64,000 bases of DNA from Actinobacteria bacterium RBG_16_68_21 (lineage in GTDB: Bacteria > Actinomycetota > Acidimicrobiia > Spongiisociales > UBA11373). Positions 26,908 to 43,093 of the stretch are shown piece after piece. The notes beneath the pieces are model-generated. The model had not been told where the DNA came from. It saw nothing but the letters and a program-made list of their open reading frames with translations, and searched no databases. Made by a program: the position numbers and the translations under genes. The stretch lies in assembly GCA_001767695.1 (NCBI GenBank), contig MELR01000015.1, positions 39,887 to 103,886 of the forward strand. The letters run 5' to 3'. Position 1 is the first letter of the stretch. The number at the start of each line of letters is the position of its first letter.

Positions 26908-26917
26908 TGCGTCTCCT

Positions 26918-28208: not shown

Positions 28209-29522
28209 ATGGGAGCGACGCGGGCCCTGTTCGCCCGGCGCGTCGCCGCCATCGGTACCGAGGAGGCGTTCGCCCTGGGGGCGCTCATCGCCGAGGTGGA
28301 AGCCGAGTCGGGTCCGGTGATCCGCTGCAATCTCGGCCAACCGGACTTTCCCCTTCCCACCCACATCGCCGATGCGGTGGTGGCGGCGATCCGTGCCGGC
28401 AAGACCACCTACTGCGATCCCCAGGGCCTCCCCGAGGTGCGCGCCGCGATCGCCGCCAAGGTGGGCACCGATCGCGGCCTCGACCTCGATCGCGAACGGG
28501 TCGTGGTCTTCGCCGGCGGGCGGCCGCCGATCGGTCTTGCCCAGCATGCGTATGTCGAGGAGGGTGACGAGGTGATCTACCCGTCCCCCGGCTACCCACT
28601 GTTCGAGTCGTTCATCCGCTACATCGGCGGGGTTCCGGTGCCGCTGCGGCTCCGTGAGGAATCCGGGTTCAACTTCACGGGCCCCGATCTCGGCGAGTTG
28701 ATCTCGGCGCGCACCAAGCTGATCTTCGTCAACTTCCCCTCCAACCCCACCGGGGGAGTCGCCAGCCGCGAGCAGCTCACCGAGATCGCCGAAGTGATCC
28801 TGGAGCGGACCGGTCCCGAAGTGCGGGTCTACTCGGACGAAGCCTACGAGGCGATCGTGTTCGACGGGGCGGTGCACGCCTCGATCGCATCGATCCCCGG
28901 CATGGCGGAGAGGACGATCATCGCTTCAGGGGCATCCAAGACCTACTCGTGGACCGGGGGACGGATCGGCTGGGGGGTATACCCGTCGGTCGACGAGGCC
29001 CTGGTGCAGCGGCGCCTCAACATCAACTACTTCGCCTCGATCCCGCCGTACAACCAGCTCGGCGTGCTGACCGCGCTGCAGTCACCGGAGTCCCCTGCTG
29101 CGATCGCCAAGATGGTGGAGGCATTCCAGCGGCGGCGCGACCTGGTGGTAGATGCCATCAACGCCATCGACGGGGTCACCTGCACGCGACCACTCGGGGC
29201 GTTCTATGTCTTTCCCAACGTGTCGGGCGCCCTCGAGCGCGTTGGGGCGTTCGAGGCGTTCGCCGCACTGCCCGAAGAGGTCAGGCGCAAGTCGTCACCG
29301 GCCACGCTCTTTCAGCTGTTCTTCCTGTACCGCTACCGGGTGGCGACCATGGACCGCCGATCGTTCGGCGTTCTCGGTTCGGAGGGGGAGAACTACCTGC
29401 GGGTGTCGATCGCCACCGGCGACGACGATCTGGCGGAGGCGATGGATCGGCTGGCCGCGGCCGCCGCCGACGTGTCCGGCTTCGAGGAGTTCGTGGCGTC
29501 CGGGCGGAGACTCACACTGTGA
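28209..29522 (+). CDS. Pyridoxal-phosphate-dependent aminotransferase, class I/II.
   Basis: SGASKTYSWTGGRIGW is the PLP-lysine region. NFPSNPTGG. 437 aa. Confidence 0.8.
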   Translation: MGATRALFARRVAAIGTEEAFALGALIAEVEAESGPVIRCNLGQPDFPLPTHIADAVVAAIRAGKTTYCDPQGLPEVRAAIAAKVGTDRGLDLDRERVVVFAGGRPPIGLAQHAYVEEGDEVIYPSPGYPLFESFIRYIGGVPVPLRLREESGFNFTGPDLGELISARTKLIFVNFPSNPTGGVASREQLTEIAEVILERTGPEVRVYSDEAYEAIVFDGAVHASIASIPGMAERTIIASGASKTYSWTGGRIGWGVYPSVDEALVQRRLNINYFASIPPYNQLGVLTALQSPESPAAIAKMVEAFQRRRDLVVDAINAIDGVTCTRPLGAFYVFPNVSGALERVGAFEAFAALPEEVRRKSSPATLFQLFFLYRYRVATMDRRSFGVLGSEGENYLRVSIATGDDDLAEAMDRLAAAAADVSGFEEFVASGRRLTL

Positions 29523-31873
29523 AGGACAACGCGGCGGCCGACATGGGAGCTGCCACGACCAGAGGGTTCGGTCCCCGCCGTGCGGTGTGGATCGATGTCG
29601 CCGCCGCCGAGGACGACTTCGAGCCCTCCACGATCGAGACGATCGAGCGTTTCGATCTGGTGTACCGCTCGCTGGTTTCGATCATGTTCAACTTCACCCA
29701 GTCGGGGCATCCCGGCGGCTCGGTGTCCTCCGGGCGGATCGTCTCATCGGTCCTCCTCGAGGGGCTCGACTACGACATCGGTGATCCCAATCGGCCGGAC
29801 GCCGACATCGTCTCCTATGCCGCGGGGCACAAGGCGTTGGGCCTTTATGCGATGCTCGGGCTCAGGGACGAGATCTGCAGGATCGCCGCCCCCGAGTTGC
29901 TGCCCGGCGCCGATAACCTCAGGCTGCGTTTCGAGGACATGCTGGGCTTCCGGCGCAATCCCACCCAGCCGACCCCGCTGTTCGGCAAGTTCGGGTCGAA
30001 AGCGCTGGACGGGCACCCGACACCGGCGACCCCGTTCGTCAAGCTGGCCACCGGGCCGTCCGGCGTGGGGGTGGCTTCGTCGATGGGCCTGGCGGTCGCA
30101 GCCGCCGACTACTACGGCACCGACGCCCCGCGCATCCACATCGTCGAGGGCGAGGGTGGCCTGACCCCGGGTCGGGTGGTCGAGGCGCTGGCGTTTGCCG
30201 GCACCGCGGGCCTGTCCAACGTAGTGATGCATCTCGACTGGAACCAGGCGTCCATCGACTCCGATACGGTCACCCGCGAGGGCGACCATCCCGGGGACTA
30301 CGTGCAGTGGGACCCGATGGAGCTCTTCTACCTCCACGACTGGAACGTCGTGGCGGTGCCCGACGGCTTCGACGTGGGCTTGGTGCTCACCGCGCAGCGC
30401 CGGGCTCAGCAGATCGACAACGGGCAACCGACCGCGATCGTCTATCGGACCACCAAGGGTTGGCGGTACGGGATCGAGGGGAAGAAGTCGCACGGCGGTG
30501 GTCACAAGATGGGCTCGGCGGCCTACCTCGACTCGCTCGCCCCCTTGTTCGGGGACGACGTCACCGGTTTGCCGTCGGCCGATGGCACAGACCCGATCGC
30601 CACCGAGGCCGCCTACTGGGCAACGCTGGAACGGGTGCGAGCGGTGCTCGCCTCCGATCCGATGACCCCGGCCGTTGCCGGGCGGGTGCGCGCCGCCTCC
30701 GATCGTCTCGCCTCCTGGAGGAGAATCCCCCGGGTGGGAGCCCCCGACGTCGAGGCGATCTACCGGGGGCTCGATCCGACCACCACGCCGGAGGGGCTGC
30801 AGCTCGAACCGGGAGGCGCCACCGCGCTTCGCCAGCAGCTGGGCAGAGTGCTCGGCCACCTGAATGCCGCCTCGGGAGGGGCCCTGCTCATCGCCGCGGC
30901 CGACCTGCTCGGATCGACCGCGATCTCCGACGCCGCGGCCGGGTTCCCTGCCGGGTTCTACCACCGCCGCGACAACCCGCTGTCGCGAACCCTGGCGGTG
31001 GGCGGAATCTGTGAGGACGGCCTCACCGGGGTGATGACCGGAGTATCGGGCTACGGCCGCCATGTCGGTGCCGGAGCTTCATATGGGGCGTTCATCGCAC
31101 CGCTCGGGCACATCGCCGCCCGGGTCCACGCGATCAGCGACCAGATGCGCCGCCAGACCGACCCCAGCCCGCCCCGGCCGGTGGTGATCGTGTGCGGGCA
31201 CGCCGGCCTGAAGACCGGCGAGGACGGCCCGACCCACGCCGATCCCCAGGCGCTGCAGCTCATGCAGGAGAACTTCGTCCCCGGTTCGGCGGTGACCCTC
31301 ACCCCGTGGGAACCCCAGGAGCTGTGGCCGATGGTCGCCGCGGCGTTCGCCGCCCGCCCGTCGGTGATCGTTCCGTTCGTGACCCGCCCCTCCGAAGCGA
31401 TCCTCGATCGGGCCGCACTCGGCCTGGCGCCGGCGGCCGAATCCACCCGGGGGGTGTACCGACTGAAGGCTGCCTCCGGCGACTCGGCGGGCGCGGTGGT
31501 GCTGCAGGGCTCCGAGGTGACCTACGCGTTCGTCCAGGAGACCATGCCTCTCCTCGAGGCGGCCGGGATCGATCTCGATGTCTACGTGGTGACCAGTCCG
31601 GAGTTGTTCGACCTGCTGGATCCCGCCGAGCGAGAGGCGACCTTCCCCGACTCCGTGGCTCGGAACGCGATGGGGATCACCGGCTTCACACTGCCGACCA
31701 TGTATCGGTGGGTTACCGGCGAGGTGGGTCGAGCCCACACGCTCCACCCCTTCCGGGGCGGCCATTACCTGGGGAGCGGGGTCGGGGCGATGGTGATCCA
31801 CGAGGCGGGCCTGGATGGCCCAGGGCAGTTCGCCGGCATCACGCGGTTCATTGCCGCGATGGACGCCCGGTAG
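29519..31873 (+). CDS. Divergent transketolase-family thiamine-diphosphate enzyme.
   Basis: GTG at 29519 overlaps the aminotransferase stop (GTGA). TQSGHPGGSVSSG...SYAAGHKALGLYAMLG is the TPP-binding N-domain. GEDGPTHADPQALQLMQ is the transketolase GEDGPTH motif. The track ORF start at 28949 is upstream junk in the same frame. Confidence 0.7.
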   Translation: MKDNAAADMGAATTRGFGPRRAVWIDVAAAEDDFEPSTIETIERFDLVYRSLVSIMFNFTQSGHPGGSVSSGRIVSSVLLEGLDYDIGDPNRPDADIVSYAAGHKALGLYAMLGLRDEICRIAAPELLPGADNLRLRFEDMLGFRRNPTQPTPLFGKFGSKALDGHPTPATPFVKLATGPSGVGVASSMGLAVAAADYYGTDAPRIHIVEGEGGLTPGRVVEALAFAGTAGLSNVVMHLDWNQASIDSDTVTREGDHPGDYVQWDPMELFYLHDWNVVAVPDGFDVGLVLTAQRRAQQIDNGQPTAIVYRTTKGWRYGIEGKKSHGGGHKMGSAAYLDSLAPLFGDDVTGLPSADGTDPIATEAAYWATLERVRAVLASDPMTPAVAGRVRAASDRLASWRRIPRVGAPDVEAIYRGLDPTTTPEGLQLEPGGATALRQQLGRVLGHLNAASGGALLIAAADLLGSTAISDAAAGFPAGFYHRRDNPLSRTLAVGGICEDGLTGVMTGVSGYGRHVGAGASYGAFIAPLGHIAARVHAISDQMRRQTDPSPPRPVVIVCGHAGLKTGEDGPTHADPQALQLMQENFVPGSAVTLTPWEPQELWPMVAAAFAARPSVIVPFVTRPSEAILDRAALGLAPAAESTRGVYRLKAASGDSAGAVVLQGSEVTYAFVQETMPLLEAAGIDLDVYVVTSPELFDLLDPAEREATFPDSVARNAMGITGFTLPTMYRWVTGEVGRAHTLHPFRGGHYLGSGVGAMVIHEAGLDGPGQFAGITRFIAAMDAR

Positions 31874-31972
31874 GGACGCGGGCAGAGACACCCTGGAAGG
31901 GGGCCATCCGGGGGCACCCCCGATGTCAAACGGCCCTGTCCTGCGTCGTCCTCGGAGAGTGAAGTCTGGTTC

Positions 31973-32422
31973 ATGTTCGTGCAGTACTACGGGTTGGTGC
32001 CGGTTCCGCTGGATCGCGCGGAGACGCGGCTGCTCGGGCTGCTCGACGGCCTCAGCGAGTCTGCCGACATCGCCTACCGCCACGGCGAAGAGATGCTCGC
32101 CCGGATCCGCGGGGGGGAGAGCAAGGTGGCCAAGACGGTCAAGCTCGAGGTAGGGGCCCCATCGCGGCGCGAGACCCAGGTCACCCTTCCCCTCTCGTGG
32201 TGGGCTACGGGGACTCCCTTCCTCTTCCCGACCATGGACGCCGAATTGGTGCTGGCCGCCATGGGACCGCAGCTCACCCAGGTGACGCTCCAGGGAACCT
32301 ACAAGCCGCCGATCGGCCCGGTGGGCCGCGCCCTCGACAAGGCCCTGCTGCACCGTTTTGCCGAGGCGAGTGTCAAGGACTTCGTCGATCGGGTGGTCGA
32401 GGGCCTCGGCGCCGACGGCTGA
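31973..32422 (+). CDS. Hypothetical protein.
   Basis: 149 aa. ATG start. Coding-like composition. No family recognised. Confidence 0.45.
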   Translation: MFVQYYGLVPVPLDRAETRLLGLLDGLSESADIAYRHGEEMLARIRGGESKVAKTVKLEVGAPSRRETQVTLPLSWWATGTPFLFPTMDAELVLAAMGPQLTQVTLQGTYKPPIGPVGRALDKALLHRFAEASVKDFVDRVVEGLGADG

Positions 32423-32455
32423 CAGCAACCGGACCAGCGGTACCATCCGGGTTCG

Positions 32456-34279
32456 GTGACCTCTCCCTCCTTCCGCAACGTCGCGCTCGTCGCGCACGTC
32501 GACCACGGCAAGACCACGCTCGTCGACGCGATGCTGCGCGCCACCGGGGTATTCGCCGCCCATCAGGCCCTGGTCGAAAGGGTGATGGACTCCAACGATC
32601 AGGAACGGGAACGGGGCATCACGATTCTCGCCAAGGCAGCTTCGGTGGAGTGGAAGGGCGTGCGGATCAATCTGGTGGACACGCCCGGTCATGCCGACTT
32701 CGGCGGCGAGGTGGAGCGAGCACTGGCCCTGGTCGACGGGATACTGCTGCTGGTCGATGCCGCCGAAGGTCCGATGCCCCAGACCCGCTACGTGCTCTCC
32801 AAAGCCCTGGCACGCGATCTCCCCGCGGTGGTGGTGGTCAACAAGGTGGATCGCGCCGATGCCCGCCCCGACGAGGTGGTCGACGAGGTCTACCAACTGT
32901 TCTTCGATCTCGATGCCGGCGAGCGGCACATCGAGTTCCCCATCGTCTCCACCATCGCTCGGCAGGGGAGGGCCATCGCCGGTATGGGCATGCCCTCCGA
33001 GGAGGCCGATCTCTCGGCGCTGCTCGACGCGATCGTGAACACGATCCCCGCTCCCGATGGAGATCCAACTGCTCCGCTGCAGGCACTGGTCACCAACCTC
33101 GACGCCTCCGACTATCTGGGTCGGCTGGCCATAGGCCGGGTGGCTCAGGGCACGCTGCGCGCCGACAGCCGGGTAGCCCTCTGTCATGCCAACGAGGAGG
33201 AGCCGCCGATCAAGAGACGCCTCACCCAATTGCTGGGGTTCGCCGGCCTTGACCGGGTCGAGGTGAGTGAGCGAGTGGCCGGGGACCTGTTCGTCGTTGC
33301 CGGCTTCCCGGAGGTGGAGATCGGCGACACCCTCGCCGATCCCGATGATCCCCAGCCGCTGCCCCGGCTGGAGGTGGACGAGCCGGTGTTGCGGATGACC
33401 TTCGGGGTGAGCACGTCTCCGCTCTCCGGCCGGGAAGGAAGCCTGCTGACCTCGCGGCAGATCCGCGACCGTCTGGACCGGGAGGTGCGGGGGAACGTCT
33501 CCATCAGGATCGGTCCGACCACTTCGCCGGACGTGATCGAGGTGGCCGGACGCGGTGAGCTGCAGTTGGCGGTGCTGATCGAATCGATGCGCCGCGAGGG
33601 ATTCGAGCTCCAGGTGAGTCGGCCCGAGGTGATCATCCGGCAGATCGAGGGGAAACCCCATGAGCCGATGGAACGAGCGGTGATCGACATCCCTGCCGAG
33701 TACGTCGGCACCGTCACCCAGGCGATCGCCCCGCGGCGGGGGAAGGTGACCGATCTGCGTCCCGGGGACTCGGGGAGAACCGTGGTCACCGTGGTGGCGC
33801 CGGCCCGCGGCCTGATCGGTCTCCGCTCGGCGTTGATCACCGCCACCAGGGGCACGGCGCTGATCCATCAGCATCACGACGGTTGGGAGCCCTGGGCGGG
33901 CGACATTCCCGGGCGGATCGGGGGAGCGATGATCGCCGATCGTCAGGGTGTCTCGTCGTCGTTCGCCCTCGACAACCTCCAGCTGCGCGGCACCCTGTTC
34001 ATCGGCCCCGGCGAGGACGTCTACGAGGGGATGATCATCGGGGAGTCGTCACGACCCGATGAGATGGTGGTGAATCCCACCAAGACCAAGGAGTTGACCA
34101 ACATCCGTACCCACGACCACGACGAGCAGGTGCGCCTCACTCCTCCCCGGCGCGCCACGCTGGAGACGGCCATCGAGTGGATCGCCGAGGACGAGCTGGT
34201 CGAGGTGACCCCACAGTCCGTGCGGATTCGCAAGCGGCATCTCTCCGAACAGCAGCGCAGATTGGCGCGCAAACGCTGA
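32456..34279 (+). CDS. typA: Translational GTPase TypA/BipA.
   Basis: FRNVALVAHVDHGKTTLVDAML, DTPGHADFGGEVER, NKVDR. 607 aa. Confidence 0.9.
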   Translation: MTSPSFRNVALVAHVDHGKTTLVDAMLRATGVFAAHQALVERVMDSNDQERERGITILAKAASVEWKGVRINLVDTPGHADFGGEVERALALVDGILLLVDAAEGPMPQTRYVLSKALARDLPAVVVVNKVDRADARPDEVVDEVYQLFFDLDAGERHIEFPIVSTIARQGRAIAGMGMPSEEADLSALLDAIVNTIPAPDGDPTAPLQALVTNLDASDYLGRLAIGRVAQGTLRADSRVALCHANEEEPPIKRRLTQLLGFAGLDRVEVSERVAGDLFVVAGFPEVEIGDTLADPDDPQPLPRLEVDEPVLRMTFGVSTSPLSGREGSLLTSRQIRDRLDREVRGNVSIRIGPTTSPDVIEVAGRGELQLAVLIESMRREGFELQVSRPEVIIRQIEGKPHEPMERAVIDIPAEYVGTVTQAIAPRRGKVTDLRPGDSGRTVVTVVAPARGLIGLRSALITATRGTALIHQHHDGWEPWAGDIPGRIGGAMIADRQGVSSSFALDNLQLRGTLFIGPGEDVYEGMIIGESSRPDEMVVNPTKTKELTNIRTHDHDEQVRLTPPRRATLETAIEWIAEDELVEVTPQSVRIRKRHLSEQQRRLARKR

Positions 34280-34288
34280 CGGGGGCAC

Positions 34289-34798
34289 TCAGGCCGGGGT
34301 CGACACTCCCACCCCACCGCGCGTCTGTCCTCCGAAGCGGGCCTTCTCCGCGGCCAGGTCCAAGCGGCGCAGCTGCATCTTCGCCGCCCGGGTGGCGTCG
34401 TCGATGAGGTCGGCGGGCACCAGCCAGCACACCTCGAACTCGATGCCGTCGGGATCCCGCCCGTAAACCGCCTTGGTGGTTCCGTGGTCGGTGGCGCCCA
34501 CCATCGCTCCCGCTTCGGTCAAACGGGTGGTGATCTCCTCCAGGGCGTCCAGGGTGTCGACCTCCCAGGCGAGGTGGTACAGGCCGACCGTGCTCCGGCC
34601 GGCATCGGATGGGGACGCCTGGCGTCCGATGGCGAACAGCCCCAGGTCGTGATCGTTGGACGACCCGGCGGCCTGCAGGAACGCTGCTCCCGGCGGACCG
34701 CCGAGGTTGCGGAAGCCGAGGGCCTCCTCGTAGAAGGAGACGCTGCGCTCCAAATCCGTTACGTATAGGACGGCGTGGTTGAGACGGGCGATCGGCAT
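34289..34798 (-). CDS. VOC (glyoxalase / bleomycin-resistance / dioxygenase) family protein.
   Basis: MPIARLNHAVLYVTDLERSVSFYEEALGF. I use the internal Met of the track ORF. Confidence 0.7.
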   Translation of the reverse strand: MPIARLNHAVLYVTDLERSVSFYEEALGFRNLGGPPGAAFLQAAGSSNDHDLGLFAIGRQASPSDAGRSTVGLYHLAWEVDTLDALEEITTRLTEAGAMVGATDHGTTKAVYGRDPDGIEFEVCWLVPADLIDDATRAAKMQLRRLDLAAEKARFGGQTRGGVGVSTPA

Positions 34799-34892
34799 GC
34801 ATCTCTGAACGCCTGCCCTGGAGCGGTATTCCTCCTCCGCAGGCCCGGCGACCCCGCTAGCGTCCGAGGGGAGGAAGTCGAGAGGAGGGCTC

Positions 34893-35207
34893 ATGCACGA
34901 CCACCTCCGCCCGGTCGAACGGCGGATCCTCGCCCTGCGCGCCTCCGGCGAGTCCACCGATCAGATCGCCGCCCGGCTCCGGCGCAGCCCGGCGCATGTG
35001 GAGCGAATCATCACCTGGACCGACATCCCCCGATCGGGTCCGGCCCCGATGCTGGCACCGATGGCGCGGGGCCGGGTCGTGCTGGCACTCCGGGGTGACG
35101 GCATGTCCCGTGAAGCCATCGCCGAGAAGTTCGGACGTTCCGCCGAGTCCATCCGCCGCCTCGAGGGTCTGGCGCACTACCGGCGGGCACTGGATCTTCT
35201 CGGCTGA
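34893..35207 (+). CDS. Small protein with two tandem LuxR/GerE-like HTH units.
   Basis: ERRILALRASGESTDQIAARLRRSPAHVERI and RGRVVLALRGDGMSREAIAEKFGRSAESIRRLEG. It lies at the start of a lower-GC3 stretch. Confidence 0.45.
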   Translation: MHDHLRPVERRILALRASGESTDQIAARLRRSPAHVERIITWTDIPRSGPAPMLAPMARGRVVLALRGDGMSREAIAEKFGRSAESIRRLEGLAHYRRALDLLG

Positions 35208-35419
35208 AGCCGCGGGATACTATCCGGCGGTGTCTTCGGCGTTGATGAGCTACTACCACACCTAGCGGGGGAGATGGGTCGAGGCCCTGCTGTTCGTGGT
35301 GGTGCTCTCCCTGGCGGTGGCGACGGCATTCGTCGACGTGGCGTGGTGGGTGCGGATCGTGCTCGACGGATCCGGCGATCGTCTACTACCTGCTGGTCGA
35401 CACGTTCACCCGGCTCAGG

Positions 35420-35863
35420 GTGCGAGTCGGAGGAGAAGTCCTACGAGTGAGCTTCGGCCAGCGTTGGCCGCGCAAGGTGATCCCCCTCGCAGCAATCACT
35501 GCGGTCGGTGCCCGCCGGGGGAAGTGTGGTGGTACGGCTGGGGCATCCGACGAATTCCCGACGGATGGTTGTGGAACGTGGCGGGCTTCGACTACGTCCG
35601 ACGCCGGCGATCCGGAAGCGCTCGGCGAGTTCATTGCACGGGCCATCCTTGACAATCTCCACAAGTTCATCGTTCCGGCTGTTGCCGGGCCCGCGCGCTT
35701 GGTACCCCTCGCTGCCCTGGAGACCCACGGCCTCTCGCGCAACGCTCTTCGCGTTGCGGCAATTCGTGGACGCCTCCAAGCGACCAAGGGTCCAGACGGT
35801 CAGTGGCGAAGCTCACGCAACTGGGTTGATCAGTACATCGAATCCCGATATCGACGCATCTAG
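35420..35863 (+). CDS. Excisionase-family / MerR-like HTH DNA-binding protein. Start uncertain.
   Basis: C-terminus LVPLAALETHGLSRNALRVAAIRGRLQATKGPDGQWRSSRNWVDQYIESR looks like the excisionase-family HTH. GC3 is about 60% against about 85% in core genes. Confidence 0.4.
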   Translation: MRVGGEVLRVSFGQRWPRKVIPLAAITAVGARRGKCGGTAGASDEFPTDGCGTWRASTTSDAGDPEALGEFIARAILDNLHKFIVPAVAGPARLVPLAALETHGLSRNALRVAAIRGRLQATKGPDGQWRSSRNWVDQYIESRYRRI

Positions 35864-35973
35864 TGCCGCTGGAAATCGGGTGACATTCCCGCACGCCGGC
35901 CGAGGGGACGGCTTGTGCCCAGTAGCCGGCACCCTAGGCTCGTCTTCTCGTTCGAGTCTGTGAGGAGGAAGCG

Positions 35974-36708
35974 ATGGCAACCACTGACGATCTGAGTTCG
36001 CAGCGGTTCTACCACGGTACGAAGGCCGACCTGAAGCCAGGGGACCTGATCGTGTCCGGCCAATCGCCCAACTCCGGTGAACAGGATCGGGCAACCGGCT
36101 ACGTCTACCTGACCGGCACCCTGGATGCGGCCGCCTGGGAAGCGGAGCTGGCACCCGGCGACGGTCCAGGCAGGATCTACATGGTCGAACCGACCGGCCC
36201 GATCATGGATGACCCGGACCTCACGGGTAAGAAGTATCCGGGTCCGGCGAAGTCATACCGCTCCCGAGAGCCGCTGCGGGTCACGGGTGAGGTCACGGAT
36301 TCGCAGGGGCGCCCGCTGCGGTTCTACCACGGCACGAAGGCTGACTTGAAGCCAGGGAACCTGATCGGGCCCGGCCACTCTCCCAACTTCGGTGAACAGG
36401 ATCGGGTAACGGACTACGTCTACCTGACCGGCACCCTGGATGCGGCAATCTGGGGGGCGGAGCTGGCACTTGGCGGTGGAGCGGGCAGGATCTACGAAGT
36501 GGAACCGACCGGCCCGATCATGGACGACCCCAATCTGACGAACATGAGGTATCGAGGCAATCCGACGAAGTCCTATCGCTCTCGAGAGCCGCTGCGGGTC
36601 ACGGGTGAGGTCACGGATTGGCAGGGGCACCCCCCGGAGACACTCCAGGCCATGAAGGACGGCCTGGAGCAACTCAAGAAGCTTGGTGTTGAGCCGATCG
36701 AGGACTGA
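35974..36708 (+). CDS. arr: Arr-family (NAD+:rifampin ADP-ribosyltransferase-like) protein. It contains two tandem Arr repeat units of about 105 aa each.
   Basis: RFYHGTKADLKPGDLI...YVYLTGTLDAAAWEAELA...RIYMVEPTGPIMDDPDLT...KSYRSREPLRVTGEVTD is repeated almost exactly from aa 117. The second copy ends ...DWQGHPPETLQAMKDGLEQLKKLGVEPIED, as in single-domain Arr proteins. The nucleotide repeats are 36007..36321 and 36322..36636. Confidence 0.75.
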   Translation: MATTDDLSSQRFYHGTKADLKPGDLIVSGQSPNSGEQDRATGYVYLTGTLDAAAWEAELAPGDGPGRIYMVEPTGPIMDDPDLTGKKYPGPAKSYRSREPLRVTGEVTDSQGRPLRFYHGTKADLKPGNLIGPGHSPNFGEQDRVTDYVYLTGTLDAAIWGAELALGGGAGRIYEVEPTGPIMDDPNLTNMRYRGNPTKSYRSREPLRVTGEVTDWQGHPPETLQAMKDGLEQLKKLGVEPIED

Positions 36709-36901
36709 GTCAAGCCGTCCTCTGATGACTGTGAGGATCACGTCCGCCGGCCGAGGGGACTGTTGCCTGTCGCACACCCTGCCCGAGGGTGCCGTCATCT
36801 GAAGGGGGTGTGCACCCAAGAACCGCCGCCCACGGCGTGGTCCCGGCACCGGTGGCGGTGCCGGGACGCGCTCGTCGAAGCCTACGAACGGGCTCCATCG
36901 G

Positions 36902-37735
36902 CTAACGGAACAGGTGCCTGCCGAGGAATGCGGTGATGTCACCGGCGTGGGGCAGAAAGCGGTCGAGGTCGCTGTGGCCGCCGCCGTCGACGATCAGCAC
37001 CTCGGCGTCGGGACGTGCCGCCGCCAACTGGTGGAGGTTCTCCAACGGCACCACCTGGTCGGCGGCGCCGTGCACCAGCAAGGTCGGGACCCGCACCAGA
37101 GGGATCCGGTTGCGGGGGGCGAAGTCCTCGAAAGGCTGGCCGATTGCCCTCTGCATGATGGCGAGGGCTGCGGCGCGCACCGGTCGCGGCGCCGACGCCA
37201 TCTGCTGGCGCATCAGCGCACCGGGATCTGCCGGCGACGCCACCGACACCAGGACCTGAAGTGCACCGCCCCGCGAGGCGCTGAGGATCGCTGCCCCGCC
37301 CCCGACCGAGTGGCCGACGACACCGATCGTGGTGACCTCCTCACGCCCCGAGAGCCAGCCGAGCGCCGCGTCGAGGTCGTCGGCGAAACGGGGCATCGAC
37401 ACGAACCGGCGACGATCCGAGAGGCCGTGGTTGCGGACGTCGAGGAACAGCGAGTGAAACCCGGCCCGGTGCAGATGGGGAGCCAGCGGGAGCATCAGGG
37501 ATGCGTTGCCGCCCCAGCCGTGAAGGACGACAACGGCGGGAGCGGAACCTGCGACCGGGATGAACCAGGCGTGGAGGCGGGGACCGCCCGGAGCCTGCAA
37601 CCACACCTCCTCCTCGGGAAGGCCGAGTGCGCTGGGGGCGGACACACCGCGAGCGACGCCAAGGCGGACGTGGTCGATGCGGTGGGGGGAGACCAACCAC
37701 AGCCACTTGCGCAGGCCGCGGAGTCGGGTGGTCAC
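36902..37735 (-). CDS. Alpha/beta-hydrolase fold protein.
   Basis: VVLHGWGGN and GHSVGG (nucleophile elbow). The GTG start overlaps the TetR stop (GTGA at 37732-37735). The longer track ORF would run through the TetR gene. Confidence 0.7.
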   Translation of the reverse strand: MTTRLRGLRKWLWLVSPHRIDHVRLGVARGVSAPSALGLPEEEVWLQAPGGPRLHAWFIPVAGSAPAVVVLHGWGGNASLMLPLAPHLHRAGFHSLFLDVRNHGLSDRRRFVSMPRFADDLDAALGWLSGREEVTTIGVVGHSVGGGAAILSASRGGALQVLVSVASPADPGALMRQQMASAPRPVRAAALAIMQRAIGQPFEDFAPRNRIPLVRVPTLLVHGAADQVVPLENLHQLAAARPDAEVLIVDGGGHSDLDRFLPHAGDITAFLGRHLFR

Positions 37736-38355
37736 GCCCGGGCGATCCCGACGTCGCCGACCTCGCCCAGGCCGGCGTCGAGGAGGTCGAAGCACCTGGC
37801 CATGAGGTCGGGTAGGGATGCCTGGCCGCCTCCGGCCAGCCACATGGCCATCGAGGCCCGCATGGCGGAGAGTGCTGCGCCGGCGAGCAGTCGGGGCACT
37901 ATTTGGAGGTCGGGGTCCGGCCTCAACCATCCGGCGACGATCCCGGCCACGGCGGCCTCCCACTCCGCCTGGAGCTTGAGGCTGCGGGCACCGACGGACG
38001 GCACCGTGGTGATGATCCGGAATCGACGCAGCATCTGCGCCCGCTCGCTCTCGTAGTCGGCCGACACGGCGACGAACGCCGCTCGCAGCGATCGCCATGG
38101 CGACTCGTCGGCGGGACCCTCCTCCAATTCCGATACCAACCGGCCCAGGCGGGCGGCGTAGTCGGCGAGGACCACGTCCTCCTTGGAGGGGAAGTAGTGG
38201 AAGAAGGTCCGAGGAGCGATGTCGGCGGCGGCGGCGACCTCGTCGACCGTGGTGCTGTTGAACCCTCGCTGCTCGAAGAGGTCGAGGGCGGCGCGCTCGA
38301 TGGCGCCCCGGGTGCGCGCCTTCTTGCGCTCGCGCAGGGTGGCGTCGCCGGACAT
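37732..38355 (-). CDS. TetR/AcrR family transcriptional regulator.
   Basis: RTRGAIERAALDLFEQRGFNSTTVDEVAAAADIAPRTFFHYFPSKED. Divergent from the MMPL gene at 38452. Confidence 0.8.
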   Translation of the reverse strand: MSGDATLRERKKARTRGAIERAALDLFEQRGFNSTTVDEVAAAADIAPRTFFHYFPSKEDVVLADYAARLGRLVSELEEGPADESPWRSLRAAFVAVSADYESERAQMLRRFRIITTVPSVGARSLKLQAEWEAAVAGIVAGWLRPDPDLQIVPRLLAGAALSAMRASMAMWLAGGGQASLPDLMARCFDLLDAGLGEVGDVGIARA

Positions 38356-38451
38356 GGGCTCAGAGTATCACGGATCGCTGCATGTCACGCATATTTGCGT
38401 TAACTGCGAAATTGCCTAGAGTGCACGCGACCTCGACACAAGGAACCGCAC

Positions 38452-40749
38452 GTGCTCGCTCGTCTCGGTCGCTTTGCCGCCGCCCACCCCTGGCGCTACG
38501 TCGCCGCCTGGATGCTCACCGCCGCCCTGCTGGTGGGCGGCGTGGTGACGGTCGGAGCGGCGTTCACTTCAAGAATCACCGCCCCGGCGTCGGAGAGCAG
38601 CGCCGGGCTCGACCTGCTGGCGAGCGAGTTCCCGGGCGCCGGCGGCGATGCCGGCTCGATCGTGTTCGTCGCCGAGCAGGGAGTCGAAGACCCCGAGGTG
38701 GCCTCCACCATGACCGGCCTCTTCGAGGCGGTGAAGGAGATCGATGGCGTCGTCAACGTGGTCAGCCCCTACTCCCCTGTGGGCGCCGGCCAGATCTCCG
38801 TCCTGGGCGACTCCGCCGGAAAGGTCGCCTACGCTCAATTGGCGCTCGAATCGGGCACCACCACCGACGACGGGGCGAGGATCTACGACGAGATCACCGC
38901 GCTCTCCCCCGACATCGCCGGGCTGGAGATCGCCCTCGGGGGCGACATGTTCCGCCACCGTGAACCCCCGAGCTCGGAGATGCTGGGACTGGCCTTCGCC
39001 ATCTTCGTGCTCATCCTCTCGTTCGGCTCCGTGCTGGCCATGGGACTGCCCATCGCCACCGCCCTGGCCGGGGTCGGGACCGGGGTGGCGGCGACCGCCT
39101 TGCTGAGCAACCTCATCGAGATGCCCGACTTCGCCGCCACGATCGGGGTGATGATCGGTCTCGGCGTGGGGATCGACTACGCCCTCTTCATCGTCACCCG
39201 GTACCAGCAGCACCTTGCCGCCGGAGCGTCGCCCCCCGAGTCGATGGCGGCAGCGCTCGACCGTGCTGGCCGGGCGGTGCTCTTTGCCGGGGTGACCGTG
39301 GTGGTCTCGCTCCTGGGCATGGTGCTGATGGGGGTCGGTTTCGTCACCGGCCTCGCCTTAGCCGCCGCCACGACAGTGGTACTCACCATGGCGGCGTCCG
39401 TCACGTTGCTCCCCGCCCTGGTCGGGCTGGCGGGACAGCGCATTCAGATCACCAGGTGGAGTGGCCTGATCGGCTCGCTCCTGGTCGCCGTCGCCATGAT
39501 CGGCGTCGCCCTCGGGGTGCCGGAGCTTCGCTTCGCCCTGGTCGCCGCGGTGGTGGTGCTGATCGCCGGCCGGTTCGGCAGCCCCCTCTCCAGGACGATC
39601 ACCCTGCGCAAGGAGAAGCCGCTCGAGGCCACCGCCTCGTACCGGTGGAGTCGCTTCGTGCAGCGGCGGGCGGCCATCATCACCGTCTCGGCGTCGCTGG
39701 TGCTGGCGATCGCCGCCCTCCCCTTGTTCTCGATCCAACTCGGGTTCACCGACGCCGGCAACGACCCGGAAGGCATTACGACCCGGCGAGCGTACGACCT
39801 GTTGGAGGCCGGATTCGGCGCCGGCGCCAACGGGCCACTGGTCCTGATCGCCACCCTCCCCGACGGTGCCGACCCGAGGGCGCTCCAGGGGGTGACGGCG
39901 ACCCTGGGCGAGGTGGAAGGCGTCGCCCAGGTGTCGGTGGGCATCCCCAACGACCCGCAGCAGCCCACCGCGATGCTGTGGCAGCTGACCCCCGAGACCG
40001 GACCGCAGGACGAGGCGACCACCTACCTGGTCCACCGGCTGCGCGACGAGGTGATCACCGGAATCGACGCCGACTTGGGCACTGAGATCCTGGTGGCCGG
40101 CTCGGTGGCGGCCAACATCGACTTCTCCGACTACCTGGCGGAGCGCATCTGGTACTTCTACGGAGCGGTGCTGCTGATCTCGTTCCTGTTCCTCTTGGCG
40201 GTGTTCCGTTCGGTGTTGGTGCCGTTGAAGGCGGTCTCCATGAACCTGCTGGCGATCGGCGCCGCCTACGGCGTGGTGGTGGCGGTGTTCCAGTGGGGCT
40301 GGGGAGGGTCGCTGCTCGGGATCGAGCCGGGCCCGATCGAGCCGTTTGTCCCGATGATGCTGTTCGCCATCGTCTTCGGGCTCTCCATGGACTACGAGGT
40401 GTTCCTCCTCACCCGGATCCGGGAGGAGTACGACCGGACCGCCGACAACACGAGTGCCGTCGCCGACGGGCTGGCGGCCACCGCCCGGGTGATCACCGCC
40501 GCCGCCCTGATCATGGTGTTCGTCTTCGCCTCCTTCGTGCTCGAAGACACGCGGACGGTCAAAGTCCTCGGCCTCGGACTGGCGGCGGCAGTAGCCATCG
40601 ATGCCACCGTTATCCGCATGCTGCTCGTCCCGGCGACCATGGAGCTGCTCGGCGACAGGAACTGGTGGATCCCGAAGTGGCTCGACCGTGTGCTACCTAA
40701 CCTGGTGGTGGAGCCGCGGAAGGTCTCCGCCGAGTCGCAAGCGGGGTGA
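38452..40749 (+). CDS. MMPL family (RND superfamily) transporter, second copy in the window.
   Basis: 765 aa. GVGIDYALFIVTRYQQ and GLSMDYEVFLLTRIREE. Confidence 0.85.
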   Translation: MLARLGRFAAAHPWRYVAAWMLTAALLVGGVVTVGAAFTSRITAPASESSAGLDLLASEFPGAGGDAGSIVFVAEQGVEDPEVASTMTGLFEAVKEIDGVVNVVSPYSPVGAGQISVLGDSAGKVAYAQLALESGTTTDDGARIYDEITALSPDIAGLEIALGGDMFRHREPPSSEMLGLAFAIFVLILSFGSVLAMGLPIATALAGVGTGVAATALLSNLIEMPDFAATIGVMIGLGVGIDYALFIVTRYQQHLAAGASPPESMAAALDRAGRAVLFAGVTVVVSLLGMVLMGVGFVTGLALAAATTVVLTMAASVTLLPALVGLAGQRIQITRWSGLIGSLLVAVAMIGVALGVPELRFALVAAVVVLIAGRFGSPLSRTITLRKEKPLEATASYRWSRFVQRRAAIITVSASLVLAIAALPLFSIQLGFTDAGNDPEGITTRRAYDLLEAGFGAGANGPLVLIATLPDGADPRALQGVTATLGEVEGVAQVSVGIPNDPQQPTAMLWQLTPETGPQDEATTYLVHRLRDEVITGIDADLGTEILVAGSVAANIDFSDYLAERIWYFYGAVLLISFLFLLAVFRSVLVPLKAVSMNLLAIGAAYGVVVAVFQWGWGGSLLGIEPGPIEPFVPMMLFAIVFGLSMDYEVFLLTRIREEYDRTADNTSAVADGLAATARVITAAALIMVFVFASFVLEDTRTVKVLGLGLAAAVAIDATVIRMLLVPATMELLGDRNWWIPKWLDRVLPNLVVEPRKVSAESQAG

Positions 40750-41016
40750 GGACGGTCATCGCCTCAGGGAGTTCCGACTTCAGCCGCAGCGCTCCGTTTG
40801 CCTCGGGAGCCACCCGGTGCCATCACGCTGCTCGATCATCACCCGGCCCTGGCGGTGCCCGTAGGCACCTCGGTGGACGAAGGCAACCTCGCTGGAGATC
40901 TCTGGCTCCATTTCTGGAGTGCCGGGTGGCACGAGATCATCGGCGCGTAGGATGAGTGCGTCGGCGGGCGATTGGACGGCTGCGTCGGGTACCTGGCGGC
41001 CTGCAGTTGGCCCCAC

Positions 41017-41619
41017 TCAGCCGCGCAACAGGCGAATCGCCTCCCTGCGAACCCTCGAAAGCACGTCGGGAAGCACCTTCCCAGCAAACGACTTGTCGTC
41101 CACAGCGTGCTCCGCTCGTTCTTCGAGCTTCTTCCAGTCGATGCGTTCGTAGGCCGCGACCCCCAGCCGGACCGCCTCGTCGAATGCCACCGGCTCTTCC
41201 CCAGTTGCCTGCAGGAGCCGATCCATGATCAGGTCGTTCAGCGAGATCACCGCCAGTTCTCCTGGTGCCAGGTCGATCACCTGCGGCCGTTCGGTGTCGA
41301 AGTCGCCCAAGCTGTCTCCAGGTACCTCGATCGCGAGTCTTTCCTCATCGTCGAAGGAGAACAACCAGCGCCGCCCGTCCTTCTTGAAGCCGAGTTCTCT
41401 GAGTGATCGGGCCTGGTCGGGCTTGCGATGCCCGACCAGATCGATGTCGGTGGGTCGATATGAGCCAGTGTGGAGCTCCACTGCCGCCCCACTCACGAGC
41501 ACCGCTCCCTCGAGGCCCGCGCTGGCGAAGGCTGCCGCGGTGAGCAGCTTCCGTCGAATGGAGTTCTGTGGCGCGTCTGACGCCCGTCGCAGCAGCTCGG
41601 TTGCCTGCGCGTCAGGCAC
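41017..41619 (-). CDS. Nucleotidyltransferase-fold protein. Candidate toxin or effector partner of the upstream XRE HTH.
   Basis: ELHTGSYRPTDIDLV fits the pol-beta-type hG[GS]x(5-13)DhD motif. The GTG start overlaps the stop of the HTH gene by 8 nt (GTGCCTGA). Confidence 0.5.
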   Translation of the reverse strand: MPDAQATELLRRASDAPQNSIRRKLLTAAAFASAGLEGAVLVSGAAVELHTGSYRPTDIDLVGHRKPDQARSLRELGFKKDGRRWLFSFDDEERLAIEVPGDSLGDFDTERPQVIDLAPGELAVISLNDLIMDRLLQATGEEPVAFDEAVRLGVAAYERIDWKKLEERAEHAVDDKSFAGKVLPDVLSRVRREAIRLLRG

Positions 41620-41986
41620 CGGCGTTCAACAGCGTTTGTTCGACTGTGATGTCGATCCCAAGACGCTGCCTCGCGTCGAGTCGCTCTTGCGGAGACGAAG
41701 CACCGAGTCCGGCCGCGACAAGTCGTGCGCGACCCCGCTCGGATGACGCGACAACCTCATCAATCGAGACCCGAGTGGTCCGAGGCACTAGTTGGATTTC
41801 GAGTCCCAGCGCATCCAACACCCTTTCGAGAGTGCTGAGGCGGAGGTCCACCTTGCCGCTCTCGATCTTGGAGAGGTTGGGAACAGCGATGCCTGACGCT
41901 CGAGATACCGCGGACTGTGTCAGTCCGGTGGCCTCTCGGGCCAGGCGCAGTCTGCTGGCAAGGTTGATTCTCAGGTCCTCTGTTAT
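41612..41986 (-). CDS. XRE (Cro/C1)-family HTH protein with a C-terminal extension. The start codon is uncertain.
   Basis: LASRLRLAREATGLTQSAVSRASGIAVPNLSKIESGK is a textbook XRE HTH. The frame is open up to a TGA at 42017-42019, but the first canonical start (GTG at 41851) lies after the HTH. An ATA, CTG or ATC start near 41970-41986 is therefore implied. Confidence 0.5.
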   Translation of the reverse strand: MTEDLRINLASRLRLAREATGLTQSAVSRASGIAVPNLSKIESGKVDLRLSTLERVLDALGLEIQLVPRTTRVSIDEVVASSERGRARLVAAGLGASSPQERLDARQRLGIDITVEQTLLNAGA

Positions 41987-41991
41987 GGAGT

Positions 41992-42020
41992 ACGCTAAGT
42001 TATCGAATAGTATAAGTCAA
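41992..42020 (-). promoter_or_regulatory. Putative sigma-70-type promoter: TTGACT - 17 nt - TAGCGT, in an AT-rich stretch.
   Basis: Reverse strand reads cTTGACTtatactattcgataactTAGCGTactccataacagaggacctgag. This is the most AT-rich 60 nt in the window. Confidence 0.35.
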
Positions 42021-42168
42021 GACCTGACTGGCTTCTCCCCGGGAGTGTGTGGGCAGACCTTGGCTGAGACGGCCAATCTCGTGTGCGCTTCCCGGACCCT
42101 GGCGACGCCTGCGGACCACACCAGATCGACGGTGCCATCCGAGGTCAGCCCGACGGCGAGCCAGGCTG

Positions 42169-42654: not shown

Positions 42655-43093
42655 TGCGATTCACCTCCGTGCGTCGAACGGGCACCACAGCTGCGCGGGC
42701 AGTGGGCGAAGGCGGTTGACGCTACTGCCTTGAGAGAGACCACACGGAGAGGGCGGTCACTGCGAGGCTCAGAAACCCGGTCAGATACCGGGGAGACACG
42801 CTCAGTGCCAACGCCCGTGCCGGCGCTCCGGTGTCACGATCCAACACCGACCGATGCGATGGGGTACGTCGCGGCTGCTCCAGCGGTCGACGGGAGTCGG
42901 CCATGGGTACGCCAAGCGGTCGCCCTCAACAGCTTCGGCAAGTCGAAGTCTTCGAAAAGAGCGAAGTCCCAGCAGGGTGTTGATTGTCTCCGCGTGAGGA
43001 CGCAGAGCCGCCAGGGTCGATCGCGCTGTTGGCTCGATCGACGCCGCGACCTCGTCGAAGGTCGGCTGTCTCGATTAACGTGCCGGTTCGCCC

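What the first reader, a model, noticed from the sequence alone, without database searches (positions are those of the whole stretch)
34893..36708. Lower-GC3 accessory islet: LuxR-like double-HTH protein, excisionase-like HTH protein and the Arr gene
Codon third-position GC drops visibly across 35200-36700. Examples are ttcattgcacgggccatccttgacaatctccacaagttc and the Arr gene itself, against about 85% GC3 in flanking core genes such as typA and MMPL. Two small DNA-binding genes precede arr. One has an excisionase/MerR-type C-terminal HTH, which suggests a remnant of an integrative element that has lost its integrase. No integrase, tRNA or direct repeats are visible in the window.
Basis: seen in the sequence. 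Interest (0 to 1): 0.55.

Follow-up and report, generated by a model that had tools for sequence, protein, structure and literature searches.

The report
Acquired arr resistance patch, fic remnant
A ~1.2-kb piece of foreign DNA carrying a double-domain rifampicin-inactivating gene (arr) and the broken tail of a fic gene has replaced part of a decaying gene in an uncultured soil actinobacterium (class Acidimicrobiia). It is an ordinary case of horizontal acquisition of a resistance gene, not the relic of an integrating element.

Summary

- **ORF1 is backbone.** ORF1 (34893-35207, two HTH motifs) has GC3 0.83 and is syntenic in two sister Acidimicrobiia species.
- **"ORF2" is a chimera.** ORF2 (35420-35863) starts with a frameshifted orphan DUF3093-like gene. 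From 35599 it is the last 88 codons of a ~330-aa Fic protein (86% identical). The "excisionase HTH" is that Fic C-terminus.
- **The left junction is exact.** A same-species contig (L084, 99.4% identical) matches up to 35598 and then continues the orphan gene instead. The patch is therefore strain-variable.
- **The composition is atypical.** The patch (35599-~36760) has 63.8% GC, in the lowest 2% of windows. GC3 is 0.66 for the fic remnant and 0.78 for arr, against 0.83-0.92 in the flanking genes.
- **arr is a tandem-domain gene.** It encodes two Arr domains (244 aa). This architecture is widespread, annotated as ordinary arr, and apparently uncharacterised. No canonical rifamycin-associated element (RAE) lies upstream.
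- **arr is bracketed by a repeat.** A ~40-nt direct repeat ("E") flanks arr. E also follows fic and other genes in donor-like contigs.
- **No mobility genes were found.** There is no tRNA and no excisionase, and no integrase within about 10 kb on one side and 6 kb on the other.

Interest is modest.

The parts
34893..35207 (+). ORF1, a 104-aa protein with two HTH motifs. It is a backbone gene and marks the left limit of conserved synteny. It is NOT part of the acquired patch.
   Evidence: Pfam: HTH_23 at 41 bits, Sigma70_r4_2 at 37 bits, HTH_28 at 31.8 bits; GerE at 23.0 bits is just below its 23.5 cut-off. It is 75% identical and syntenic in sister species L004 and L005, and homology stops at 35207. 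GC3 is 0.83.
35296..35598 (+). 5' remnant of an orphan DUF3093-like small membrane-protein gene. It is a frameshifted pseudogene, truncated at 35598.
   Evidence: L084 is 99.4% identical up to 35598 and there carries a 151-aa ORF, P0218. The frame-corrected L084 gene aligns 44% over 118 aa with P0241, E=5e-33, and the alignment runs past the junction. Two frame changes are shared with L084. One extra 1-nt indel near 35374 is specific to the window haplotype.
35598..35599 (.). Left junction of the acquired DNA. Resident pseudogene lies to the left and the fic fragment to the right.
   Evidence: Identity to L084 ends at 35598. All fic-locus blastn matches begin at 35598-35600. There is at most 1 nt of microhomology. 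L178, L180 and L182 share this junction.
35599..35863 (+). 3' fragment of a fic gene: the last ~88 codons plus the stop. The catalytic Fic domain is missing.
   Evidence: 79/92 residues identical to residues 237-328 of P0121, a 329-aa Fic protein. The Pfam Fic domain of P0121 lies at residues 110-217, upstream of the break. GC3 is 0.66.
35420..35863 (+). It is a chimeric open frame spanning the pseudogene remnant and the fic tail, and is probably not a functional gene.
   Evidence: No Pfam family at E<=0.01. Residues 1-54 come from the pseudogene and residues 55-146 from Fic.
35874..35909 (+). E(up): the upstream copy of the ~40-nt E repeat. Its 5' end is degraded here.
   Evidence: Direct repeat D5. 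nhmmer E=8e-7. The same element lies upstream of arr in L086 and downstream of fic in L085, L166 and L167.
35910..35973 (+). Putative arr promoter and leader. Features: imperfect dyad GGCTTGTGCCCAGTAGCC at 35910-35927, -35 TTGTGC at 35913-35918, -10 TAGGCT at 35935-35940, Shine-Dalgarno GAGGAGG at 35962-35968.
   Evidence: Inferred from conservation among the closest arr loci: window, L001, L086, L087. It is below the threshold of the consensus promoter scan. No canonical RAE is present.
35974..36708 (+). arr, encoding a 244-aa tandem-domain rifampin ADP-ribosyltransferase. The N domain is about 35974-36306 and the C domain about 36307-36708.
   Evidence: PF12120 matches twice, E=8e-82. NF033144 scores 331.9 bits against a cut-off of 130. 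The halves are 84% identical at nucleotide level and 79% at amino-acid level. The C half is 56% identical to Arr-ms (2HW2/9IAF), with target-normalised TM-score 0.82-0.84. GC3 is 0.78.
36715..36760 (+). E(dn): the downstream copy of the E repeat, with a 6-nt insertion.
   Evidence: The 16-nt exact core at 36745-36760 equals 35894-35909. E is conserved directly after the arr stop in L001, L003, L086 and L087.
36761..36880 (.). Spacer of undetermined origin between E(dn) and the conserved hydrolase block. It contains the hairpin CCCGGCACCG-GTGG-CGGTGCCGGG. The right junction of the patch lies somewhere in this spacer.
   Evidence: Sister-species homology resumes at about 36881. Positions 36827-36861 are deleted in the same-species contig L176. 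A 23-nt match (21/23) to the region upstream of fic in L166 lies at 36775-36797.
36902..37735 (-). Alpha/beta hydrolase (277 aa). It is the first gene of the conserved hydrolase-TetR-MMPL block and marks the right limit. It is not part of the patch.
   Evidence: Pfam Abhydrolase_1 and Hydrolase_4. The block is conserved in sister species L184 and L186-L189 with different neighbours and no arr.

Best explanation
The locus is a gap (35208-36880) between two conserved gene blocks of an uncultured Acidimicrobiia species: typA-VOC-ORF1 on the left and hydrolase-TetR-MMPL on the right. The gap originally held an orphan small membrane-protein gene that was already decaying.

In one lineage of the species, a foreign fragment of at least 1.16 kb replaced the 3' part of that pseudogene, removing at least 173 nt. 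The replacement was by illegitimate recombination. The fragment came from a donor in which arr lay downstream of a fic gene. It carries:
- the last 265 nt of fic, which is non-functional because the catalytic domain is missing;
- a ~40-nt intergenic repeat E;
- arr's own promoter and Shine-Dalgarno sequence;
- a complete arr;
- a second E copy.

arr encodes two fused Arr domains that both keep the H/Y/D catalytic residues. It most likely inactivates rifamycins by NAD+-dependent ADP-ribosylation. It is probably expressed from its own promoter without the canonical RAE switch.

Shown here: the gene identities, the left junction, strain variability, absence from sister species, the compositional contrast and the flanking repeats. 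Inferred: the direction of the event, the promoter, the enzyme activity and the resistance phenotype.
For: - **Left synteny.** Sister species L004 and L005 (TypA 92% and 90% identical) share typA-VOC-ORF1. They lose all similarity exactly after the ORF1 stop.
- **Right synteny.** Sister species keep hydrolase-TetR-MMPL but with other neighbours and no arr. Similarity ends at about 36881.
- **Strain variability.** Same-species contig L084 (99.4% identical) matches 34252-35598 and then continues the small gene. Its 173-nt tail is absent from the 64-kb window. That tail aligns with the distant homologue P0241, so L084 shows the ancestral state.
- **fic fragment.** From 35598/9 onwards the window matches fic 3' ends in five independent loci.
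- **Shared junction.** Same-species contigs L178, L180 and L182 share the junction, and L174-L176 carry the arr 3' end next to the hydrolase. L182 carries the L084 indel allele together with the junction, which gives the order L084 -> L182 -> window.
- **Composition.**
- **Scattered arr contexts.** The closest arr genes (77-90% identical) sit in unrelated contexts. They hold about 64-66% GC in hosts of 70-72% GC.
- **arr identity.**
Against: - The arr-less allele rests on one short metagenomic contig (1519 nt). Its right side was not recovered, so the right junction and the size of the deletion are unknown.
- No donor with intact fic-E-arr was found among 83 arr loci.
- arr GC3 alone is not an outlier.
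- The promoter assignment fails the generic sigma-70 scan.
- No tandem-domain Arr has been assayed, as far as the searched literature shows.
Confidence: 0.8

Rival explanations
1. First reader's view. The three genes form the remnant of an integrative or mobilisable element: a LuxR-type regulator, an excisionase and arr as cargo, with the integrase lost.
For: - An HTH_17-like signal is present in the ORF2 tail (E=0.044).
- The region is lower in GC.
- arr is known on IMEs and integrons in other phyla (PMC8492726).
Against: - ORF1 is syntenic backbone.
- The HTH tail is the normal C-terminus of a ~330-aa Fic family, 86% identical.
- No repeats flank the three-gene unit.
- No tRNA was found.
- No integrase-type Pfam hit occurs on same-species contigs covering window 24893-43001.
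- The left end is an illegitimate join.
Confidence: 0.04
2. arr is a small mobile cassette bounded by E sites. On this view E is a recombination site, functionally analogous to attC or att. [E-half - promoter - arr - E-half] units would insert into resident E copies downstream of genes such as fic. The window would then have received fic'-E-arr-E from such an array.
For: - E flanks arr as a direct repeat in two unrelated contexts: the window (z=5.8) and L086 (30/36 matching positions, z=10).
- A single E follows fic in arr-less loci L085, L166 and L167.
- Co-oriented E copies follow successive genes in fic contigs (L085 x3, L168 x4) and bracket a 379-aa gene in L089.
- All copies within each contig are co-oriented. 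The product of chance probabilities is about 1/256 (own arithmetic).
- Upstream similarity between arr loci ends within or near E(up).
- E has inverted ends, GTCCTCT...AGGGGAC.
Against: - No recombinase is linked to any copy.
- Breakpoints in E(up) are not at one fixed position.
- The window's own left junction lies in fic, not in E.
- E lacks the attC core sites.
- The sample is small (about 20 copies) and most copies trained the profile that detected them.
- E could simply be a lineage-specific intergenic repeat (MIRU- or REP-like) or a 3'-UTR element of the donor.
Confidence: 0.12
3. The region is native. Its lower GC3 would reflect protein composition or expression level, and L084 would be a derived deletion or rearrangement.
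For: - arr GC3 (0.78) lies within the window's range.
- Most same-species contigs carry the patch.
Against: - Two truncated genes abut at 35598/9.
- The L084 tail continues the ancestral reading frame, as shown by P0241.
- Sister species lack arr on both sides.
- The nearest arr and fic relatives are in unrelated genomes.
Confidence: 0.04

Closest known systems
Arr rifampin ADP-ribosyltransferases (Arr-ms of Mycolicibacterium smegmatis, PDB 2HW2/9IAF; Arr-2, 9IBA)
   Same: - The C domain is 56% identical to Arr-ms over 129 aligned positions and has the same fold, with TM-score 0.82-0.84.
- Equivalents of H19, Y49 and D84 are present. The roles of those residues are from my own knowledge of Baysarowich et al. 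2008; the alignment is.
- The protein passes the NCBIfam equivalog cut-off.
   Different: - It has two fused Arr domains (244 aa), whereas characterised enzymes are single-domain proteins of 140-150 aa.
- The N domain lacks the C-terminal helix.
- Across 121 tandem proteins the N domain evolves faster (63% against 79% identity between proteins). It also often loses the motifs: HGT is kept in 88 and the DDP-like motif in 43 of 121, against 118 and 119 for the C domain.
RAE-controlled rifamycin resistance genes of Actinobacteria (Spanogiannopoulos 2014; Surette 2021, bioRxiv 10.1101/2021.05.10.443488)
   Same: It is an actinobacterial arr with a dyad-symmetric sequence overlapping the putative -35 box. 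The RAE overlaps the -35 of promoter 2 in helR in the same way (PMC10719064).
   Different: - The 19-bp palindrome is absent. The best match has 8 mismatches, which is background level.
- Nine of the 83 other arr loci carry it with 0-3 mismatches.
- The consensus string I used is recalled from memory, but it is validated by those nine recurrences.
Integron gene cassettes carrying arr-2/arr-3, with attC sites
   Same: A short imperfect-palindrome-ended element follows arr and neighbouring genes in one orientation.
   Different: - E is ~40 nt and has no RYYYAAC/GTTRRRY cores.
- arr here has its own promoter region.
- No intI is present.
- The hosts are Actinomycetota.
MIRU/REP-type short intergenic repeats
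   Same: E is short and co-oriented with genes. It lies at gene 3' ends and sometimes overlaps the stop codon (L085 fic, L168, L089).
   Different: - There are only two copies in this 64-kb window and none in about 1.2 Mb of other Acidimicrobiia loci.
- No tandem arrays of E were seen.
Fic/DOC family proteins (PF02661) with a C-terminal winged-helix-like tail
   Same: ORF2 residues 55-146 are 86% identical to the tail of this subfamily.
   Different: Only the tail is present. The HxFx(D/E)GNGRxxR core is missing, so it is a gene fragment.

Membership tests
Arr (rifampin ADP-ribosyltransferase, PF12120 / NF033144) | Arr-ms domain match above the curated cut-offs | tested here: met
   PF12120 scores 270 bits (cut-off 25) with two stretches. 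NF033144 scores 331.9 bits (cut-off 130).
Arr (rifampin ADP-ribosyltransferase, PF12120 / NF033144) | Catalytic and substrate residues equivalent to Arr-ms H19, Y49 and D84 | tested here: met
   HGT, YVYLT and DDP are present in both halves. The alignment to 9IAF/2HW2 places them at H119, Y150 and D185. The residue roles are from my own knowledge.
Arr (rifampin ADP-ribosyltransferase, PF12120 / NF033144) | Single-domain protein of about 140-150 aa, as in all functionally verified Arr | tested here: not met
   The protein is 244 aa with two tandem domains. PMC8492726 states that verified Arr proteins are about 140-150 aa.
Arr (rifampin ADP-ribosyltransferase, PF12120 / NF033144) | ADP-ribosylation of rifamycins and a resistance phenotype | not testable with these tools
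   This needs cloning, MIC measurement and LC-MS.
RAE regulon | 19-bp palindrome GGGGCTTGCNGCAAGCCCC within about 300 nt upstream | tested here: not met
   The best match has 8 mismatches. The distribution over 84 loci (83 plus the window) is bimodal, 0-3 against 6 or more mismatches.
Integrative element remnant (ICE/IME/CIME) | Integrase or recombinase gene | tested here: not met
   No such Pfam family occurs on the called genes of same-species contigs covering window 24893-43001. The rest of the window was not scanned with profiles.
Integrative element remnant (ICE/IME/CIME) | Excisionase (HTH_17 / Xis family) | tested here: not met
   HTH_17 scores 14.5 bits against a cut-off of 27. The segment is the C-terminus of Fic.
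Integrative element remnant (ICE/IME/CIME) | attL/attR direct repeats at the ends of the islet, often at a tRNA gene | tested here: not met
   No tRNA was found. The repeats bracket arr only. The left end of the patch is an illegitimate junction.
Integron gene cassette | attC site with R''/R' core sites, and intI nearby | tested here: not met
   By inspection E has no RYYYAAC/GTTRRRY cores. No integrase was found. No attC covariance model was available.
Fic/DOC (PF02661), for ORF2 | Fic domain with the HxFx(D/E)GNGRxxR motif | tested here: not met
   ORF2 has no Pfam hit. It matches only residues 237-328 of P0121, whose Fic domain lies at 110-217.
LuxR/GerE-type HTH regulator, for ORF1 | GerE domain above the gathering score | tested here: inconclusive
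   GerE scores 23.0 bits against 23.5. HTH_23, Sigma70_r4_2, HTH_38 and HTH_28 are above their cut-offs, and two HTH units lie at residues 1-41 and 59-92.

The most novel reading that the evidence does not exclude
The ~40-nt E element may be the recombination site of a previously undescribed cassette-type gene-capture system in high-GC soil Actinomycetota. E has inverted ends and is co-oriented with genes. It follows successive genes in fic-bearing contigs and brackets arr. Under this reading, gene-E arrays would be the working unit and arr would be a self-promoted cassette. The two-domain Arr, whose N domain is often degenerate, would be its resistance cargo.
Probability: 0.12. Interest if true: 0.7.

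Novelty: new member of a known kind. Interest (0 to 1): 0.33.

Why it matters
- **A clean worked example of resistance-gene acquisition.** It documents, to the base, how an environmental Acidimicrobiia lineage acquired a rifamycin-inactivating gene. Both allele states are present in public metagenomes.
- **A caution for annotation.** The "small DNA-binding gene" next to the resistance gene is a scar: a fic tail fused to a pseudogene. It is not a mobility gene.
- **An untested enzyme architecture.** The tandem-domain Arr occurs across several phyla and on cyanobacterial megaplasmids. It is annotated as ordinary arr but appears untested. Surveys that filter by coverage of Arr-ms may not distinguish it.
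- **A testable hint of a new element.** The E repeat points, weakly, to a cassette-like organisation in Actinomycetota.

Tried and rejected
- **Canonical RAE upstream of arr.** It is absent here but present in nine other arr loci.
- **Leader peptide (uORF) in E(up), MTFPHAGRGD....** Rejected. The frame and stop are not conserved in L001, L085 has an immediate stop, and the putative -10 box lies inside the ORF.
- **E as an RNA hairpin or terminator.** The stem is not conserved between copies, whereas the loop sequence is. There is no Rfam hit and no terminator-like site.
- **E as attC or a dif-like site.** No core sites or arm symmetry were seen by inspection.
- **Phage or plasmid origin.** No Fic or Arr relative was found in IMG/VR and no E pattern. 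Plasmids match only arr itself, and E gave only chance-level hits.
- **Donor with intact fic next to arr.** None was found among 83 arr loci.
- **Precise right junction.** It was not resolvable. Sister-species intergenic DNA is too diverged, no arr-less contig covers that side, and the look-ups were exhausted.
- **Orphan small-gene family.** Only one distant relative exists among 1.84 billion representatives.
- **E flanking fic on both sides.** This is only suggestive: a 12-nt exact repeat in L085 (z=3.5) and a 21/23 match between window 36775-36797 and the region upstream of fic in L166.
- **Caveat on my own queries.** My 'abh' query was one base out of frame. Its identity values should be ignored. 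The locations are still valid, and one search gives the correct identities.
Full report
**Anatomy**

The window is 68.1% GC. The ORFs around the finding are:

| Feature | Coordinates | Strand | Notes |
|---|---|---|---|
| typA | 32456-34279 | + | |
| VOC/glyoxalase gene | 34289-34798 | - | |
| ORF1 | 34893-35207 | + | 104 aa, two HTH units |
| "ORF2" | 35420-35863 | + | 147 aa, no Pfam hit |
| arr | 35974-36708 | + | 244 aa |
| alpha/beta hydrolase | 36902-37735 | - | |
| MftR-type TetR | 37732-38355 | - | |
| MMPL transporter | 38452-40749 | + | |

**Observation check**

GC3 is 0.83-0.92 in all flanking genes, including ORF1 (0.83). It is 0.66 in 35600-35863 and 0.78 in arr.

Total GC of 35599-36760 is 63.8%, against 68.2 +/- 1.9% for equal-sized windows. 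That is the lowest 2%. Tetranucleotide distance from the whole window is in the top 3.3%. ORF1 is 71.1% GC. The dip is therefore real, but it starts after ORF1.

In 35210-35600 the blurred codon-phase signal has a different cause, described under "ORF2" below. arr GC3 alone is unremarkable against 58 crude ORF calls, whose median is 0.82 and 5th percentile 0.69.

**Organism and synteny**

TypA places the window in uncultured Acidimicrobiia. The best species representatives are L004 (92% identical) and L005 (90%); the next best are at or below about 80%.

L004 and L005 share typA-VOC-ORF1 with the window, with ORF1 75% identical. Nucleotide similarity stops exactly at the ORF1 stop, position 35207. 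L005 continues with a Rieske oxygenase that is absent from the window.

On the other side, sister species keep MMPL-TetR-hydrolase. The hydrolase is 83-87% identical. Beyond it they have an aminotransferase (L184) or TfoX/MarR genes (L186-L189), and no arr. Similarity to the window ends at about 36881.

So 35208-36880 is a variable gap between two conserved blocks, and ORF1 is backbone.

**What "ORF2" really is**

Reading the three frames of 35208-35863 suggested a frameshifted gene.

1. About 330-aa Fic proteins covering only the C-terminal part of the query. ORF2 residues 55-146 are 86% identical (79/92) to residues 237-328 of P0121. The Fic catalytic domain of P0121 is at residues 110-217, which lies upstream of the break.
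2. P0218, a 151-aa protein matching the N-terminal part.

The P0218 contig, L084, is 99.4% identical to window 34252-35598 and then diverges abruptly. Its last 173 nt are nowhere in the window.

P0218 is an orphan with one distant relative, P0241, among 1.84 billion representatives. P0241 has a weak DUF3093 hit. A frame-corrected translation of the L084 gene aligns with P0241 at 44% over 118 aa (E=5e-33), and the alignment runs past the junction.

Three conclusions follow:

- The small gene is a pseudogene. Two frame changes are shared by L084 and the window.
- L084 preserves its original continuation.
- The window state is derived.

All fic loci align to the window starting at 35598-35600. 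The join has at most 1 nt of microhomology. HTH_17 scores only 14.5 bits against a cut-off of 27.

**Strain variation**

Exact-protein look-ups gave further same-species contigs at 99.6-100% identity.

- L178, L180 and L182 cross the left junction into fic'.
- L174, L175 and L176 run from MMPL through the hydrolase into the 3' part of arr.
- L182 carries the L084 allele of a 1-nt indel near 35374 and also has the junction.

This gives a simple order: L084 (no patch), then L182, then the window haplotype. L084 is the only arr-less allele seen and covers only the left side. L176 lacks a 35-nt hairpin at 36827-36861.

**arr**

arr encodes two Arr-ms domains that are 84% identical at nucleotide level and 79% at amino-acid level. 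It passes the NCBIfam equivalog model.

The C domain aligns with Arr-ms residues 17-141. An AlphaFold model (pLDDT 78, pTM 0.76) matches 2HW2/9IAF with target-normalised TM-score 0.82-0.84 and 56% identity. Both halves keep HGT, YVYLT and DDP.

The 240-245-aa architecture is common. The best 120 database clusters are all tandem. The named sources are Nodosilinea, Limnocylindrales and Longimicrobiales, and the gene also sits on Nostoc and Leptolyngbya megaplasmids annotated simply as arr.

Across 121 tandem proteins the two domains behave differently:

| | C domain | N domain |
|---|---|---|
| Identity between proteins | 79% | 63% |
| HGT motif kept | 118/121 | 88/121 |
| DDP or DDP-like motif kept | 119/121 | 43/121 |

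In this clade the N-C identity (about 80%) is near the family maximum. That fits gene conversion or a younger re-duplication, but I did not resolve which.

A published survey noted Arr-domain proteins of 36-679 aa but kept only those resembling Arr-ms (PMC8492726). I found no description of the tandem form.

**Regulation**

The canonical RAE palindrome occurs upstream of nine of the 83 other arr loci with 0-3 mismatches. The window and its closest relatives L001, L086 and L087 have only background matches of 7-8 mismatches.

The window clade shares another conserved upstream region:

- an imperfect dyad over a TTGTGC box;
- TAGGCT 16 nt downstream of that box;
- a conserved leader;
- the Shine-Dalgarno sequence GAGGAGG.

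I read this as arr's own promoter. This is an inference, and the generic promoter scan finds nothing.

**Mobility evidence**

The closest arr genes (90%, 83% and 77% identical) sit in unrelated contexts without HTH or fic neighbours. They stay at about 64-66% GC in contigs of 70-72% GC.

arr is bracketed by a direct repeat, E. The upstream copy is at 35874-35909 and the downstream copy at 36715-36760, with a 16-nt exact core (z=5.8). The same bracket occurs in L086 behind an alcohol dehydrogenase gene (30/36 matching positions, z=10). It is degraded in L001 and L003.

A single E follows fic in the arr-less loci L085, L166 and L167. A profile search over about 2 Mb of fetched DNA found E in the following places only:

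- arr-clade loci;
- fic contigs, with co-oriented copies after successive genes (L085 x3, L168 x4, L169);
- around a 379-aa gene in L089.

No E copy was found in the other Acidimicrobiia loci. The window has only the two copies inside the patch. E has inverted ends (GTCCTCT...AGGGGAC) and often overlaps the stop codon of the preceding gene.

The conservative reading is that E is a short intergenic repeat of the donor lineage that came along with fic' and arr. This in itself marks the patch as foreign. The bolder reading is that E is a cassette recombination site. I rate it about 0.12 because no recombinase is linked, the breakpoints are not fixed, and this patch's own left end lies in fic.

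**Negative results**

- No tRNA in the window.
- No Rfam family in 34800-37100.
- No integrase-type Pfam hits on same-species contigs spanning window 24893-43001.
- No relatives in viral contigs.
- No plasmid match beyond arr itself.

**Verdict**

The feature is a real, strain-variable, horizontally acquired patch. It consists of a fic remnant plus a complete tandem-domain arr, inserted by illegitimate recombination into a decaying orphan gene at a synteny break.

It is a new member of a known kind: acquisition of arr. Two side observations merit follow-up, the untested tandem Arr architecture and the E repeat.

Noticed in passing
window 35974-36708, and proteins P0001-P0120: The two-domain Arr (about 240-245 aa) is a large family spanning several phyla. 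The C domain is conserved and the N domain is fast-evolving and often lacks the catalytic motifs. Databases name it plain arr, and I found no paper describing it.
   Followed up: partly
L085 1203-2322; L168 674-5203; L169 827-868; L089 6720-7988: Co-oriented copies of the ~40-nt E repeat follow successive, mostly hypothetical, genes in fic-bearing metagenomic contigs. The result is a gene-E-gene-E layout reminiscent of cassette arrays or MIRU-like intercistronic repeats.
   Followed up: partly
window 36287-36455 (L178 ends and L174 starts inside arr): In sample ERZ27256843 the short-read assembly breaks inside arr, presumably because of its 315-nt internal repeat. Tandem arr genes may therefore be under-assembled in metagenomes.
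   Followed up: no
window 36827-36861: A 35-nt segment carrying most of a perfect 10-bp-stem hairpin (CCCGGCACCG/CGGTGCCGGG) lies between arr and the hydrolase. It is deleted in the same-species contig L176.
   Followed up: partly
window 40850-42400: This is the lowest-GC stretch of the window (62-63%) and a tetranucleotide outlier. It holds hypothetical genes; only a sub-threshold DUF1801 hit was found in one of them. It may be a second accessory segment.
   Followed up: partly
window 8100-8700: This stretch has the strongest tetranucleotide deviation in the window. It was not examined.
   Followed up: no
L085 100-200; L166 640-740; L168 2930-3020; L169 3140-3230: Regions upstream of fic share repeated TGTACGGT(T/A)CAGTT-like boxes, which are probably an operator for fic regulation.
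   Followed up: no
window 35296-35598 and L084 1045-1500: The orphan DUF3093-like gene carries two frame changes shared by both haplotypes, so it was already a pseudogene before the patch arrived. The gene caller still reports a 151-aa protein (P0218) from it.
   Followed up: yes
L003 (contig_40654, 662 kb): Many neighbouring genes are split into fragments (UPRTase, ETF, SRP54 pieces). This suggests indel errors in a long-read assembly, so gene calls there are unreliable.
   Followed up: no
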